Of a stretch of DNA of 64,000 bases, positions 50,338 through 53,277 are shown one piece after another. The position numbers were made by a program, and so were the translations under genes. The stretch lies in the NCBI GenBank assembly GCA_003134035.1, contig PLAE01000249.1, positions 2,964 through 66,963 on the forward strand, written 5' to 3'. Under the pieces are notes generated by a model that was not told the DNA's origin, ran no database searches, and was given only the letters and a program-made list of their open reading frames with translations. Source of the stretch: Vulcanimicrobiota bacterium. Its GTDB lineage: Bacteria > Vulcanimicrobiota > Vulcanimicrobiia > Vulcanimicrobiales > Vulcanimicrobiaceae. The first letter of the stretch is position 1; every line of letters begins with the position of its first letter.

Positions 50338-50994
50338 TCAGATCTCCTTGCTTTCACTTGGGTCGACTTTGCTTTCAACTGGATCAACGTTTGTCTTGAG
50401 TAATTCCGGATAGTGCAAACCGCATTCGGTCTTCGCGAATCCGGCCCAGCGGCCGGCGCGCGCATCCTCGCCCGGCTGCACACGACGCGTGCAGGGGACG
50501 CAGCCGATGCTGGCATAGCCGGCATCCGTGAGCGGGTTGTGCGGAATATCGTTCGCGTCGGCGTATGCGGCGATGTCGAGGTCGCTCCACGACGCCAGCG
50601 GGCTGACCTTGAGGAGATTCGAGCCGGCGTCCCAAGCGACGCTCCGCACGGCTTGGCGAGTCGCAATCGTCGTCTGGTGCAGGCCGGTGATCCACGCATC
50701 GTAGTTGGCCAAGAATGCCCGCTGGGGCGCGACCTTGCGCATCGCACAGCAAGCGTCGGGATCGCGCTCCCAGAGCGCTTCGCCGTGCCGGCGCGCCTGA
50801 TCGACGAGCGAGAGTTCGGGCTGCACACCCGTTACCGCGATGCCGTAACGCTCCTCGACTCGCCGGATGAATGCGTAGGTCTCCGCAAACAACAGGCCCG
50901 TGTCGAGGTAGTAAACCGGCAGCTTGGGTTCGATGCGCAGCGCCATGTCGAGCAAAACCAGACCGCCCAAGCCGCCGAAGGAAGCGGCTAGCAC
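50338..50994 (-). CDS. cysH: Fe-S type APS/PAPS reductase (the true N-terminus probably lies upstream, near 51075)
   Basis: 'SFGG', the 'CC' pair in 'DPDACCAMRKV', 'GCVPCT' and 'ECGLH' are present. In-frame conserved sequence 'AEATLHWALRTYRERI' lies upstream of the first canonical start, GTG 50994. Confidence 0.85.
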   Translation of the reverse strand: MLAASFGGLGGLVLLDMALRIEPKLPVYYLDTGLLFAETYAFIRRVEERYGIAVTGVQPELSLVDQARRHGEALWERDPDACCAMRKVAPQRAFLANYDAWITGLHQTTIATRQAVRSVAWDAGSNLLKVSPLASWSDLDIAAYADANDIPHNPLTDAGYASIGCVPCTRRVQPGEDARAGRWAGFAKTECGLHYPELLKTNVDPVESKVDPSESKEI

Positions 50995-51116
50995 GATGCG
51001 CTCGCGATAGGTGCGCAGCGCCCAATGCAGCGTCGCTTCGGCGGAATCGATCGTGGGGGACGGCGAGGTGATGATGGCGGGCCTCTTGGGGAGCGTCGCT
51101 GCCGCGGACGGAGCGC

Positions 51117-51153
51117 GGAAAGAAAAGAAGCCTCGCCGGGCCGGCGAGGCTTC
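51117..51153 (-). terminator. Intrinsic terminator / attenuator in the cysH leader
   Basis: Minus strand reads GAAGCCTCGCC-GGCCC-GGCGAGGCTTC (11-bp stem) followed by TTTTCTTT. It lies about 40 nt upstream of cysH coding sequence. Confidence 0.7.
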
Positions 51154-51195
51154 ATCTCACGAACGTTTTGGCAGACGTTTTATCGCGTGACGAAC

Positions 51196-51258
51196 TTATG
51201 CCGGTCCGACGGAATCGCCGAAGCAACGACATGGGCAACAGCATAATACGTACTGCAT
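51196..51258 (-). CDS. Poly-cysteine mini-ORF (MQYVLCCCPCRCFGDSVGPA), putative Cys-sensing leader peptide
   Basis: 20 codons, with 5 Cys among 7 consecutive codons. The ATG lies 7 nt after the -10 element, suggesting a leaderless mRNA. It sits between the promoter and the terminator. Confidence 0.55.
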   Translation of the reverse strand: MQYVLCCCPCRCFGDSVGPA

Positions 51259-51265
51259 CGGCTCG

Positions 51266-51294
51266 ACCATACCACGGTGCGCACTTGCCGTCAA
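51266..51294 (-). promoter_or_regulatory. Promoter of the cys leader/operon
   Basis: Minus strand reads TTGACG, 17 nt, TATGGT. Confidence 0.5.
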
Positions 51295-51326
51295 TCGTGA
51301 AAGGCAGTGCGGGCAGCGCGGCTTCC

Positions 51327-51356
51327 TTGACGGTTTCCCCGGAATCGTGGTACCGT
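51327..51356 (+). promoter_or_regulatory. Possible promoter of the sir leader
   Basis: TTGACG, 18 nt, TACCGT (weak -10). It lies back to back with the minus-strand promoter. Confidence 0.3.
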
Positions 51357-51365
51357 CCACGCGAT

Positions 51366-51449
51366 ATGACGCAACCGCCCTTTGGCTGTCCGCGTTTGGG
51401 TTGTTGTCGCGTAATGCGGCGGCGTGTCATGTCGGCTTTGTTGCCCTGA
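51366..51449 (+). CDS. Cys-containing mini-ORF (MTQPPFGCPRLGCCRVMRRRVMSALLP), possible leader peptide
   Basis: 27 codons with 3 Cys, including a CC pair. It starts about 10 nt after the candidate -10 and ends 19 nt before a terminator-like hairpin. Confidence 0.4.
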   Translation: MTQPPFGCPRLGCCRVMRRRVMSALLP

Positions 51450-51467
51450 GGGCCGCCGTCGACATGA

Positions 51468-51505
51468 ACCTCCGCCGATGTCCGGCGAAGGTTCTTTTTC
51501 TTGTT
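51468..51505 (+). terminator. Terminator-like hairpin in the sir leader
   Basis: ACCTCCGCCG-ATGTC-CGGCGAAGGT (9 bp with 1 mismatch) followed by TCTTTTTCTTGTT. It lies about 120 nt upstream of the sir ATG. Confidence 0.55.
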
Positions 51506-51605
51506 CCCGGCCCCGCTATTCGGCAACCGCCCCTGCCGGCTACGTTCTGAATCGCCCGATACCTCGCAGTCACGGCGCCGATCCATCACGAGGTCTTGTT
51601 AAGGT

Positions 51606-51635
51606 CTTCCATGAGCAAACTTCCATGAGCAAACT
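51606..51635 (+). repeat. Perfect 14-nt tandem duplication spanning the sir start codon
   Basis: TTCCATGAGCAAAC occurs at 51607..51620 and again at 51621..51634. Confidence 0.9.
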
Positions 51636-53277
51636 CGACGTCGAAGCCGTCAAGGCGAATAGCCAAGGGCTGCGCGGCCCAATCCCGGACGAATTGCAGG
51701 CGCCCACCGACCATTTCGGTGATGAATCGTCGTTACTGCTGAAGTTTCACGGGGTCTATCAGCAAGACGACCGCGATGCGCGAAAGACGATGCGCGAGCG
51801 GGGCGCAGGCCGAGATTTCTCGTTCATGGTGCGGACCAAGAATCCGGGCGGTTTTCTACCGGCGGCCTTCTATTTGGCAATCGATCGGCTCGCCGACGAG
51901 TACGGCAACGGAACGATCCGGGTAACGACGCGCGCCGGTCTGCAGTTGCACGGCGTCCGCAAATCGAATTTGCACGAGGTCATCGCCCAAATCAATGCCC
52001 ACCTAGGTTCGACGCTGGGCGCCTGCGGCGACATCAACCGCAACGTGACGGCCGCGCCGTTTCCGTTCGCTGCGCCGGAGTATGCGGCCGCGCGGACCGC
52101 GGCGGTGGAGATCGCCGAGCTGCTGACCCCACGCGCCACCGCGTACTATGAGATTTGGCAAGACGGGGAAGTCGTGCACTCGACCGAGGCGGCCGAAGAT
52201 CCGATTTACGGCAAAGCGTTTCTGCCGCGCAAGTTCAAGATCGCCGTCGCCGTGCCGGGCGACAACAGCGTCGATCTCTACACGAACGATTTGGGCGTCG
52301 TCCCGCTCGTCGACGACGCGGGCACGCTGCTCGGCTTCAATCTCACCGTCGGCGGCGGCTTGGGCAATACCCACGGCAAAACCGCGACTTATCCGCGGCT
52401 GGCCGATGAATTCGGCTTTGTGCCGCCGGCGCTGCTGCTCGATGCGGTGAAGGCGATCGTCCTCGTCCAGCGCGATCACGGCGATCGAACCAATCGCCGC
52501 CACGCGCGGCTCAAGTATCTGATCGCCGATCGCGGCCTGGCCTGGTTCCGCGCGCAGGTCGAGGCCCAAGCCGGCTTTTCGCTCGAGGCCTGGCGCCCGC
52601 TGCAGGCCTGGACCGCGCCGCAGTTCCTGGGTTGGAACGCCGCCGGCGACGGCACCTGGTTTTACGGCGTCTCGATCGCGAACGGCCGCGTGCGCGACGG
52701 GCTCAAGGCGGCGCTGCGCGACATCGTCGCCGAACTCGGCTGCGATCTCATCGCCACACCCGATCAAAACATCGTCATCGGCGGCATCGCGCCGGCCCTG
52801 CGGCCACGGATCGACGCGATCTTCGCCGCGCACGGCGTGGCCGATCCGCAAATGATCTCGGTGCGCGAAAAAGTCGCCATGGCGTGTCCCGCGCTGCCGA
52901 CGTGCGGCCTCGCGCTGGCCGAGTCCGAACGCGTGCTGCCCAAGCTCGTGGCCGAGATCGATGCGCTGCTCGAGCGGCTGGGCGTCGGCGACCCGGTCAC
53001 GATCCGAATGACCGGCTGTCCCAACGGCTGCGCACGGCCGTACATGGGCGAGATCGGGATCGTCGGCGTCAGCGCCGATCGCTACACGCTTTACCTTGGC
53101 GGTAATCCCGCCTCGACCCGGCTCAACCAAGTCTTCGCCGAAGGCGTGCGCACCGCAGAAATCGCCGGAGTGCTGGCGCCGCTCTTCGAACGCTGGTCCC
53201 GCGAGCGCGCGGCCGGCGAGCCGTTCGGCGACTTCTGCGTGCGCGCCGTCCTCGATCGCGAGAAAGTCGCATCCTAG
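51625..53277 (+). CDS. sir: Sulfite reductase hemoprotein (ferredoxin-dependent NirA/Sir type)
   Basis: ATG 51625 (MSKLDVEAVK). 'LKFHGVYQQDDRD', 'ACGDINRNV' and 'MTGCPNGCARP' (siroheme/4Fe-4S Cys cluster) are present. Confidence 0.88.
   Translation: MSKLDVEAVKANSQGLRGPIPDELQAPTDHFGDESSLLLKFHGVYQQDDRDARKTMRERGAGRDFSFMVRTKNPGGFLPAAFYLAIDRLADEYGNGTIRVTTRAGLQLHGVRKSNLHEVIAQINAHLGSTLGACGDINRNVTAAPFPFAAPEYAAARTAAVEIAELLTPRATAYYEIWQDGEVVHSTEAAEDPIYGKAFLPRKFKIAVAVPGDNSVDLYTNDLGVVPLVDDAGTLLGFNLTVGGGLGNTHGKTATYPRLADEFGFVPPALLLDAVKAIVLVQRDHGDRTNRRHARLKYLIADRGLAWFRAQVEAQAGFSLEAWRPLQAWTAPQFLGWNAAGDGTWFYGVSIANGRVRDGLKAALRDIVAELGCDLIATPDQNIVIGGIAPALRPRIDAIFAAHGVADPQMISVREKVAMACPALPTCGLALAESERVLPKLVAEIDALLERLGVGDPVTIRMTGCPNGCARPYMGEIGIVGVSADRYTLYLGGNPASTRLNQVFAEGVRTAEIAGVLAPLFERWSRERAAGEPFGDFCVRAVLDREKVAS

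What the first reader, a model, noticed from the sequence alone, without database searches (positions are those of the whole stretch)
51327..51505. Second Cys-containing mini-ORF plus terminator-like hairpin on the opposite strand, upstream of sulfite reductase
Seen: back to back with the cysH promoter there is TTGACG, 18 nt, TACCGT on the plus strand. ATG 51366 then opens MTQPPFGCPRLGCCRVMRRRVMSALLP (3 Cys, one CC pair), with a stop at 51449. Nineteen nt later is a hairpin ACCTCCGCCG/CGGCGAAGGT followed by TCTTTTTCTTGTT, still about 120 nt upstream of the sir ATG. CGGCGG inside the ORF (51415-51420) is complementary to CCGCCG both at 51453-51458 and in the terminator 5' arm, which would allow alternative pairings. 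Inference: both arms of the divergent sulfate-assimilation regulon may be governed by Cys-codon-dependent attenuation from one compact control region. This arm is weaker evidence than the cysH arm, with fewer Cys codons and a poorer -10.
Basis: partly seen in the sequence, partly recalled or inferred. Interest (0 to 1): 0.6.

Follow-up and report, generated by a model that had tools for sequence, protein, structure and literature searches.

The report
Cysteine-sensing leader attenuator before sulfite reductase
A 27-codon mini-gene with three cysteine codons, followed by a transcription stop hairpin, sits in front of the sulfite reductase gene and most likely turns the gene on when cysteine runs short; the principle is textbook, but this cysteine version in a little-studied soil/peat phylum is a new example.

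Summary
The window holds a conserved promoter (TTGACG, extended -10 TGgTACCGT), an ATG 9 nt after the -10 with no Shine-Dalgarno sequence, and a 27-codon ORF with Cys at codons 8, 13 and 14. A 12-pair G+C-rich hairpin with a U tract follows, 120 nt before the sir ATG (51625).

By itself the window's ORF is weak evidence: 3 Cys is not above chance for its composition (P=0.21).

Comparison with relatives settles it. Eight relatives (phylum Vulcanimicrobiota/Eremiobacterota; sir 73-81% identical) keep the same unit: the promoter, an ATG 8-9 nt after the -10, a 24-25-codon ORF with 2-5 Cys, and the same terminator. A ninth (67%) has an unrelated-sequence version of the same design (MLPFVCCPPSCC... 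plus terminator).

All nine homologous leaders (window plus eight) can form three mutually exclusive helices:
- Cys codons with region 2.
- Region 2 with the terminator 5' arm (antiterminator).
- The terminator itself.

This is the classical trp-type four-region layout.

A covariance model of the sir leader also hits the cysH-arm leaders, so the two arms are probably paralogues. Five relatives lack the sir leader.

No RNA data exist, so function is inferred. Verdict: a new member of a known kind. Interest is moderate.

The parts
51327..51332 (+). -35 box TTGACG of the sir-leader promoter
   Evidence: Read. TTGACG is invariant in all 9 homologous leaders; L175 has TTGACA.
51348..51356 (+). Extended -10, TGgTACCGT
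   Evidence: The TGn plus TAnnnT pattern is present in all 9 leaders, with a 17-18 nt spacer from the -35.
51366..51449 (+). Leader mini-ORF of 27 codons, MTQPPFGCPRLGCCRVMRRRVMSALLP. Its ATG lies 9 nt after the -10 with no Shine-Dalgarno sequence, so it is leaderless or nearly so.
   Evidence: The ATG is 8-9 nt after the -10 in all 10 leaders. In 5 relatives an in-frame stop lies 15-18 nt upstream, which fixes the start.
51387..51389 (+). Cys codon 8 (TGT)
   Evidence: Kept as TGT in 5 of 6 members of the 25-codon clade while the flanking codons vary.
51402..51407 (+). Tandem Cys codons 13-14 (TGT TGT), the presumed stall site
   Evidence: Cys14 is present in 6 of 6 and Cys13 in 4 of 6 members of the 25-codon clade.
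51403..51410 (+). Region 1: pairs with 51416-51423 to form the anti-antiterminator (also a possible pause hairpin)
   Evidence: -12.2 kcal/mol in the window; 83% of cells paired across 9 sequences, against 28-47% at slides of 1-2 columns; slides of 3 columns, one CGG repeat unit, still pair at 75-76%.
51417..51436 (+). Region 2: 5' strand of the antiterminator (CGGCGG.C..TCATGTCGGC; codons 18-24)
   Evidence: duplex with region 3 is -18.5 kcal/mol.
51458..51477 (+). Region 3: 3' strand of the antiterminator. It overlaps the terminator 5' arm (51466-51477) by 12 nt.
   Evidence: 89.7% of cells paired, against 35-52% when the partner is slid.
51466..51494 (+). Intrinsic-terminator hairpin (regions 3:4)
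   Evidence: -18.2 kcal/mol; 97.8% paired in 9 sequences.
51495..51505 (+). U-rich tract TTTTTCTTGTT
   Evidence: Relatives have T6-T7 at this position.
51625..53277 (+). sir/cysI, the assimilatory sulfite reductase hemoprotein and the regulated gene
   Evidence: NF010029, 722 bits.
51115..51294 (-). Twin unit on the cysH arm: promoter, ORF MQYVLCCCPCRCFGDSVGPA, and terminator at 51153-51127
   Evidence: The sir-leader model R1 hits 51115-51247 on the minus strand over its full length (33.7 bits, E=4e-7).

Best explanation
This is a ribosome-mediated (leader-peptide) transcription attenuator that senses charged tRNA-Cys and controls sir.

**How it would work**
- Transcription starts 1-3 nt before, or at, ATG 51366 from a TTGACG / TGn-TAnnnT promoter, so the mini-ORF is translated without a Shine-Dalgarno sequence.
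- Cysteine plentiful: the ribosome runs to the stop codon at 51447. There it covers region 2 (51417-51436). The terminator hairpin (51466-51494 plus U tract) forms and RNA polymerase stops before sir.
- Cysteine short: the ribosome stalls with Cys codon 13 or 14 (or 8) in the A site. It then covers region 1 (51403-51410) but leaves region 2 free. Region 2 pairs with region 3 (51458-51477) as soon as region 3 is transcribed. That sequesters the terminator 5' arm, and polymerase reads through into sir.
- No translation: regions 1 and 2 pair with each other, and termination follows.

**Shown versus inferred**
- Shown: the sequence elements, their conservation, and the pairing potential and geometry.
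- Inferred: the transcription start site, translation of the ORF, stalling, and termination.
For: 1. **Context.** The downstream gene is assimilatory sulfite reductase. The divergent operon is cysH-cysC-cysA plus sulfate permease genes.

2. **Conservation of the whole unit.** It is kept upstream of sir in 8 relatives whose sir is 73-81% identical. This holds whether cysH is the divergent neighbour (L162, L163, L166, L167/168, L170) or not (L081, L171, L172). The peptides:
   - MTRASCRCPKPMCCRGQQRRRFILE
   - MTKPSCRCSESMCCRGQLRRRFILE
   - MTVPSLRCPSEGCCRIGLRRRFMSE
   - MTKPPRNFWILCYCRGAERRCFVSE
   - MPRPLAGCARSIRCRTPRGRSFMSD
   - MQIVCCVMCQACPRESERRRFTMT
   - MRTVCRVMCSTCRRKSDRRRFTVT
   - MSAACCCSCSMCPPKSGRRRFALQ

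3. **An independent version.** L175 (sir 67% identical) has an ATG 8 nt after its -10, the ORF MLPFVCCPPSCCRLALRAWRGAALD, and a different terminator (GGGGCCCTCGC..GCGGGGGCC followed by T7). Its antiterminator is predicted only when the Cys region is masked.

4. **Cys enrichment.** 31 of 224 codons are Cys (14%), against 1.1% in four neighbouring genes. TGT/TGC synonymous variation occurs at conserved Cys positions. Shuffle P values are 0.003-0.014 in four leaders.

5. **The three helices across the 9 homologous leaders.**
   - Antiterminator: predicted in all 9 partial-transcript folds. 89.7% of cells paired, against 35-52% when slid.
   - Terminator: 97.8% paired.
   - Regions 1:2: 83% paired.
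   - Region 3's best upstream partner is the same alignment site in 7 of 9.

6. **Geometry.** The last Cys codon lies 12-15 nt upstream of region 2. The stop codon lies 9-16 nt after region 2's core.

7. **Rarity.** Terminator-like sites are rare in the window: 7 in 128 kb.

8. **The twin.** The cysH arm has the same architecture with 5 Cys, and the sir-leader model hits it.
Against: - There is no transcript, start-site, termination or ribosome data. Three peat metatranscriptomes hold nothing from this locus.
- The window's own ORF has only 3 Cys, which is not significant for its T/G-rich composition (P=0.21).
- TGY triplets are also frequent in one other frame (21, against 31 in frame).
- The helices are supported by conserved pairing, not by compensatory changes. 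Only one pair in the antiterminator changes on both sides, and none in the terminator.
- At equilibrium the terminator wins in most simulated stalled states (P about 0.9), so the switch must be kinetic.
- The leader has been lost or degraded in L161 (86%), L164/165 (82%), L169 (79%) and L173 (72%), and is absent in Lustribacter (62%). It is therefore dispensable.
- Whether this phylum translates leaderless mRNAs efficiently is not known.
Confidence: 0.7

Rival explanations
1. A translation-independent attenuator. The terminator/antiterminator switch would be set by a protein or small ligand, or would simply damp expression constitutively. The mini-ORF and its Cys codons would then be by-products of the T/G- and CGG-rich pairing segments.
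For: - TGY triplets are nearly as common in one other frame.
- Cys14-Arg15 (TGTCGC) and the RRRF codons coincide with paired segments, so RNA constraints alone could conserve them.
- ORF openness is uninformative at 66% G+C.
Against: - There is no Rfam match.
- The stretch between the stop codon and region 3 is variable and has no conserved ligand-binding core.
- Cys8 and the Cys codons of the 24-codon clade lie in poorly conserved sequence, and they change synonymously between TGT and TGC.
- L175 keeps the Cys-rich ORF with unrelated RNA sequence.
- The ATG sits at a fixed 8-9 nt from the -10 in all 10 leaders.
Confidence: 0.12
2. A decaying relic in this genome. The element would have been functional in an ancestor but no longer regulate sir here.
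For: - The window's copy is the weakest: 3 Cys, a C-A mismatch in the stem, an interrupted U tract, a 3-nt deletion and a later stop codon.
- Five relatives have lost the leader.
- The window has an unusually long 120-nt spacer before sir.
Against: - All four regions and the promoter are intact.
- The window has the strongest antiterminator duplex of all the leaders (-18.5 kcal/mol), and its terminator is -18.2 kcal/mol.
- The model score is 115 bits, within the family range.
Confidence: 0.1
3. A translational attenuator of the mycobacterial type. Stalling on the Cys codons would free the sir ribosome-binding site rather than prevent termination.
For: - The geometry (leaderless-like ORF, tandem Cys) is the same as in the M. 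smegmatis LL-sORFs (10.1101/834739).
- In L171 the hairpin ends only 10 nt before the sir start.
Against: - A G+C-rich stem followed directly by a U tract is conserved in all the leaders.
- In the window the sir start lies 120 nt downstream. A fold of the whole 5' UTR shows no pairing between the leader and the sir start region.
Confidence: 0.05
4. The Cys/Arg-rich peptide is itself the product, for example a metal-binding micropeptide or a nascent-chain arrest peptide acting through RRRF.
For: The RRRF motif is kept, with some synonymous changes (CGG/AGG/CGA/CGT/CGC).
Against: - The variable codon positions of RRRF are exactly the unpaired or wobble columns of the antiterminator, so RNA pairing explains the motif.
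- The N-terminal half is not conserved apart from Cys.
- L175 lacks RRRF altogether.
Confidence: 0.03

Closest known systems
Classical leader-peptide transcription attenuators of amino-acid operons (E. coli trpL, hisL, leuL, thrL; textbook knowledge)
   Same: - A short leader ORF carrying codons for the pathway's end-product amino acid.
- Four segments that form the 1:2, 2:3 and 3:4 helices.
- An intrinsic terminator before the structural gene.
- Ribosome position selecting which helix forms.
   Different: - The amino acid sensed is cysteine.
- The ORF has no Shine-Dalgarno sequence and starts at or next to the 5' end.
- The host is Vulcanimicrobiota/Eremiobacterota.
- Two units, probably paralogous, sit back to back on divergent promoters.
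Polycysteine leaderless short ORFs of mycobacteria (Canestrari et al. 2020, 10.1101/834739; predicted earlier by Seliverstov et al. 2005, PMC1262725)
   Same: - Leaderless-like mini-ORFs with tandem Cys codons in front of cysteine/sulfur-assimilation genes.
- Several such units per genome acting through tRNA-Cys (a 'ribulon').
   Different: - The studied mycobacterial case acts on translation by unmasking the downstream ribosome-binding site, and Seliverstov et al. found no conserved terminators. Here a conserved intrinsic terminator and antiterminator are present.
- There is no sequence relationship, and the phylum is different.
uORFC-8-2 motif upstream of cysS in Rhodobacterales (Brewer et al. 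2021, PMC8632094)
   Same: A predicted uORF with two tandem Cys codons lying inside a stem, followed by an intrinsic terminator; transcriptional read-through on stalling is proposed.
   Different: - It controls cysteinyl-tRNA synthetase, not sulfate assimilation.
- It occurs in alpha-proteobacteria.
- There is no sequence similarity (no Rfam hit).

Membership tests
Leader-peptide (ribosome-mediated) transcription attenuators | A short ORF in the 5' leader, enriched in codons for the amino acid made by the regulated pathway | tested here: met
   The window's ORF has 3 Cys in 27 codons. Relatives have 2-5 Cys in 24-25 codons, 14% overall against 1.1% in neighbouring genes. The window alone is not significant (P=0.21).
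Leader-peptide (ribosome-mediated) transcription attenuators | An intrinsic terminator (G+C-rich hairpin plus U tract) between the leader ORF and the structural gene | tested here: met
   Located at 51466-51505, -18.2 kcal/mol. It is 97.8% paired in 9 sequences and is one of only 7 such sites in the window. Termination activity itself was not tested.
Leader-peptide (ribosome-mediated) transcription attenuators | An antiterminator helix mutually exclusive with the terminator, whose 5' strand lies in or just after the leader ORF | tested here: met
   Positions 51417-51436 pair with 51458-51477, overlapping the terminator 5' arm by 12 nt. The helix is predicted in all 9 homologues, with 89.7% paired against 35-52% when slid. 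Compensatory covariation is weak.
Leader-peptide (ribosome-mediated) transcription attenuators | Regulatory codons placed so that a stalled ribosome frees the antiterminator strand, while a terminating ribosome blocks it | tested here: met
   Regions 1:2 include Cys13/14. The last Cys codon lies 12-15 nt before region 2, and the stop codon 9-16 nt after its core. This is geometry only.
Leader-peptide (ribosome-mediated) transcription attenuators | Translation of the leader ORF, and amino-acid-dependent read-through in vivo | not testable with these tools
   No RNA or ribosome data are available; the metatranscriptomes are empty for this locus.
Mycobacterial polycysteine LL-sORF attenuators | The ORF begins at the transcription start (leaderless) | tested here: inconclusive
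   The ATG lies 8-9 nt after the -10 in all 10 leaders, with no Shine-Dalgarno sequence. The transcription start site has not been measured.
Mycobacterial polycysteine LL-sORF attenuators | At least two consecutive Cys codons | tested here: met
   Codons 13-14 are TGT TGT.
Mycobacterial polycysteine LL-sORF attenuators | [quoted passage not shown] | tested here: not met
   A terminator with a U tract lies 120 nt before the sir start, and the fold of the whole 5' UTR shows no pairing between the leader and the sir start region.
Any curated Rfam leader or riboswitch family | A match to the family covariance model | tested here: not met
   The best hit on this strand is 15 bits, far below the gathering score.

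The most novel reading that the evidence does not exclude
Vulcanimicrobiota/Eremiobacterota may run sulfate assimilation through a 'Cys ribulon' built from transcription terminators. In this reading, leaderless Cys-codon attenuators arose once, were duplicated in inverted orientation to govern both arms of the sir / cysH-cysC-cysA-permease cluster, and were re-invented with unrelated sequence in a sister lineage (L175). They would take the place of a dedicated CysB/CymR-type regulator. That would parallel the mycobacterial translational system while using the classical trp-type mechanism.
Probability: 0.4. Interest if true: 0.55.

Novelty: new member of a known kind. Interest (0 to 1): 0.42.

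Why it matters
- It adds cysteine, the sulfite reductase gene and an uncultured-dominated phylum to the short list of leader-peptide transcription attenuators.
- It shows a leaderless-type mini-ORF combined with a full four-region terminator switch.
- It gives a concrete, testable regulatory model, with exact residues and helices, for sulfur assimilation in peat and soil Vulcanimicrobiota.
- The twin arrangement and the non-homologous analogue in L175 make it a small natural experiment in how such sensors arise, duplicate and are lost.

Tried and rejected
- **Rfam scan of 50500-52200 at E up to 10.** Only chance-level hits, so no known riboswitch or leader family.
- **RNA evidence.** Two run searches and one laying of three peat metatranscriptomes found nothing, so the start site and termination could not be tested.
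- **Whole-genome and relatives search.** I could not look for further Cys leaders before cysK, cysE or cysS in this genome, nor survey the phylum.
- **Collection scans with the Sir protein.**
The only usable locus, L001 (Lustribacter, 62%), has no leader.
Of the two usable loci, L081 has the leader and L083 does not.
  - Close relatives had to be fetched one by one, using all 12 look-ups.
- **Covariation.** Pairing is conserved, but true compensatory changes are too few to prove structure with 9 sequences.
- **Equilibrium folding with a masked ribosome footprint.** The terminator still dominates in most sequences, so a purely thermodynamic switch is rejected in favour of a kinetic one.
- **A longer protein from the in-frame TTG ORF 51168-51449.** Rejected: in five relatives an in-frame stop lies 15-18 nt before the ATG.
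- **Other Cys-rich mini-ORFs in the window.** None besides the cysH arm has both a TTGAC promoter and a T-run downstream. This scan took only the first ATG after each stop, so it also skipped the sir mini-ORF itself.
- **Sequestration of the sir ribosome-binding site by the leader.** Not seen.

Full report
**1. What is there**

- TTGACG at 51327-51332, an 18-nt spacer ending in TGg, then TACCGT at 51351-51356.
- ATG at 51366, opening MTQPPFGCPRLGCCRVMRRRVMSALLP and ending with TGA at 51447-51449.
- A hairpin GAACCTCCGCCG-ATGTC-CGGCGAAGGTTC at 51466-51494 (-18.2 kcal/mol).
- A tail TTTTTCTTGTT running to 51505.

The in-frame start of the downstream gene is ATG 51625. The ATG at 51611 opens only a 5-codon ORF. 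The gene is the assimilatory sulfite reductase hemoprotein (NF010029, 722 bits). The divergent minus-strand genes are cysH, cysC, cysA and sulfate permease genes.

**2. Is it more than chance?**

- Hairpin plus T-run sites are rare here. There are seven on both strands of the 64-kb window, and two of them are the sir and cysH leaders.
- The ORF alone is not convincing. Three Cys in 27 codons has a shuffle P of 0.21 for this T/G-rich composition. Eight percent of ATG mini-ORFs in the window have three or more Cys.

**3. Relatives**

*How they were found.*
- The closest named Sir proteins are from Candidatus Velthaea, at 73-74% identity. This genus belongs to phylum Vulcanimicrobiota, formerly Eremiobacterota/WPS-2.
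- DNA holders of the locus are peat metagenomes.
- Loci were fetched around thirteen distinct Sir proteins. Two more loci came from the metagenome scan and one, L001, from the genome scan.

*Eight loci carry a sequence-homologous leader.* Each has TTGACG, 17-18 nt, TGn-TAnnnT, an ATG 8-9 nt after the -10 with no Shine-Dalgarno sequence, a 24-25-codon ORF with 2-5 Cys, and the terminator GAACCTTCGCC...GGCG(A/G)AGGTT followed by T6-7.
- Five of them have cysH as the divergent neighbour: L162, L163, L166, L167/168 and L170.
- Three have unrelated upstream genes: L081, L171 and L172. The unit therefore travels with sir, not with the cysH promoter.

*A ninth locus carries the same design in different sequence.* In L175 (sir 67% identical, with sir-cysH on one strand) the promoter is TTGACA-...-TGgTACAAA and the ATG lies 8 nt after it. 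The ORF is MLPFVCCPPSCCRLALRAWRGAALD, and the terminator is a different G+C-rich hairpin followed by T7.

*The leader is missing or degraded in these loci*:
- L161 (86%; only MTQP... remains, and there is no terminator)
- L164/165 (82%)
- L169 (79%)
- L173 (72%)
- Lustribacter L001 (62%)
- L083 (62%)

It is therefore dispensable, and less stable in evolution than the cysH-arm leader. The cysH-arm leader is present in every locus where cysH is the divergent neighbour.

**4. Evidence that the ORF and its Cys codons matter**

- In five relatives an in-frame stop lies 15-18 nt before the ATG, so the ORF cannot start earlier.
- Cys makes up 31 of 224 codons (14%), against 14 of 1277 (1.1%) in sir, cysH, cysC and cysA.
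- Shuffle P values are 0.003-0.014 in four leaders and 0.065-0.24 in the others.
- Cys positions are kept within clades while neighbouring codons vary:
  - In the 25-codon clade, codon 8 is Cys in 5 of 6 and codon 14 in 6 of 6.
  - In the 24-codon clade, codons 5, 9 and 12 are Cys in 3 of 3. Some of these positions switch between TGT and TGC.
- 25 of the 31 Cys codons are TGT, although the four neighbouring genes use TGC 11 times and TGT 3 times.
- Caveat: TGY triplets are also common in one other frame (21, against 31 in frame and 4 in the third frame). Cys14-Arg15 also lies in a paired segment. Part of the signal could therefore come from RNA constraints.
- L175, with unrelated RNA sequence but four Cys codons, argues against that being the whole story.

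**5. Structure**

When each leader is folded as a partial transcript that ends before the terminator 3' arm, the same long-range helix appears in all nine homologous sequences. The segment encoding RRRF and the following codons pairs with the sequence just before and including the terminator 5' arm.

| Helix | Window positions | Cells paired, alignment A1 | Slid controls |
|---|---|---|---|
| Antiterminator (2:3) | 51417-51436 with 51458-51477 | 89.7% | 35-52% |
| Terminator (3:4) | 51466-51477 with 51483-51494 | 97.8% | 27-61% |
| Anti-antiterminator (1:2) | 51403-51410 with 51416-51423 | 83.3% | 28-47% at 1-2 columns; 75-76% at 3 columns |

Further points:
- The 1:2 helix joins the Cys13-Cys14-Arg15 codons to the start of the RRRF segment.
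- Region 3's best upstream duplex partner is the same alignment site in 7 of 9 sequences, at -12 to -18.5 kcal/mol. The 1:2 hairpins are -12 to -18 kcal/mol and the terminators -15 to -20 kcal/mol.
- True compensatory changes are few: one pair in the antiterminator, none in the terminator, two pairs in the 1:2 helix. The support is therefore conserved pairing potential, not covariation.
- The conserved peptide motif RRRF is explained by this pairing, because its variable codon positions are the unpaired or wobble columns.

**6. Mechanism**

The layout is the classical four-region attenuator.
- A ribosome stalled with Cys13 or Cys14 in the A site shields mRNA to about 10-12 nt downstream. That covers region 1 and leaves region 2 free, since region 2 starts 12-15 nt after the last Cys codon. 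Region 2 can then capture region 3 before region 4 is made, giving read-through.
- A ribosome that reaches the stop codon (9-16 nt after the core of region 2) covers region 2, so the terminator forms.
- Without translation, regions 1 and 2 pair, and the terminator forms.

In equilibrium folds with a masked footprint, the terminator still wins in most sequences (P about 0.9). The exceptions are L171 and L081, where the terminator probability is 0.01 with the ribosome stalled at Cys12. The decision must therefore be kinetic, as in textbook attenuators. In L175 the antiterminator appears in the partial transcript only when the Cys region is masked.

All steps after the sequence anatomy are inference.

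**7. Relation to the cysH arm**

A covariance model built from the nine sir leaders (R1) scored them at 102-140 bits. It also matched, over its full length, the cysH-arm leaders:
- The window's own (51115-51247 on the minus strand, 33.7 bits, E=4e-7).
- Those of L161 and L170, at 27-28.5 bits.
- Those of L162, L163, L164/165 and L167/168, weakly (13.5-17.4 bits, E=0.014-0.16).

It matched nothing of that kind in the other phyla searched. An alignment shows the shared blocks: the Cys codons, then CGGCG, TTC.TCA, GTGA.ATGAA, and the stem with its U tract.

The two arms are thus probably paralogues that work the same way. The two units are independent, since the sir unit also occurs without cysH next to it.

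**8. Comparison with known systems**

- *Mycobacteria.* Cys-codon leader ORFs were predicted in 2005 without terminators (PMC1262725). They were shown in 2020 to be leaderless polycysteine ORFs acting, in the studied case, on translation (10.1101/834739).
- *Rhodobacterales.* A tandem-Cys uORF with a terminator was predicted upstream of cysS (PMC8632094).
- *This element.* It shares the sensing principle with both, leaderless geometry with the first, and terminator logic with the second and with trpL/hisL. It is unrelated in sequence (no Rfam hit), sits before sulfite reductase, and belongs to another phylum.

I file it as a new member of a known kind.

**9. Verdict**

Confidence in the mechanism is 0.7, because no transcript or translation data exist. 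Interest is moderate: the principle is textbook and the sister arm has already been reported in this scan. The conserved four-region design, the leaderless start, the paralogous twin and the independent analogue in L175 nonetheless make a clean, testable case.

Noticed in passing
window 51607-51634: TTCCATGAGCAAAC is present twice in tandem. The first copy gives a 5-codon ORF (MSKLP) whose TGA overlaps the real sir ATG at 51625. All relatives read have a single copy (CCATGAGTAAGCTC or similar), so the duplication is specific to this genome.
   Followed up: partly
window 51295-51326; L162 about 2690-2710; L163 about 1020-1040; L166 about 1255-1270; L170 about 1195-1270: An (A)AGCAAGC motif recurs between the two divergent -35 boxes in relatives. 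L170 has three tandem copies of GAGCAAGCACGCCC; the window has the looser AAAGGCAGTGC. It could be an UP element or a regulator site, which would add initiation control on top of attenuation.
   Followed up: no
window 51115-51294 (minus strand) and the matching positions in L161-L170: The cysH-arm leader (MQYVLCCCPCRCFGDSVGPA here; ...CC.CPGGP.GSA in relatives) is present in every locus with divergent cysH, including those that have lost the sir leader. In that arm the stop codon lies inside the CGGCG segment, not 4-5 codons after it.
   Followed up: partly
L175 1018-1160 and 2863-3080: A relative with sir 67% identical carries a Cys-rich leaderless mini-ORF plus terminator of unrelated sequence before a sir-cysH same-strand pair. 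The 218-nt sir-cysH spacer also contains a T7 run (GTGCATTTTTTTCGC).
   Followed up: partly
window 50338-51093 (minus strand): The longest canonical-start cysH ORF (GTG 50994) aligns only from profile position 46 of 244. The true start is probably upstream and may be non-canonical.
   Followed up: no
L163 1229-1500: In this relative a 272-nt spacer lies between the leader terminator and sir, against 10-56 nt in most relatives and 122 nt in the window. It contains a direct repeat, GAACCGCGAGATCGG, present twice.
   Followed up: no
window 51398-51409 and 51527-51540: In the fold of the whole 5' UTR, the Cys-codon segment GGGTTGTTGTCG pairs with CGGCAACCGCCCC downstream of the terminator. It may be chance; the fold as a whole is not better than shuffles.
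   Followed up: no
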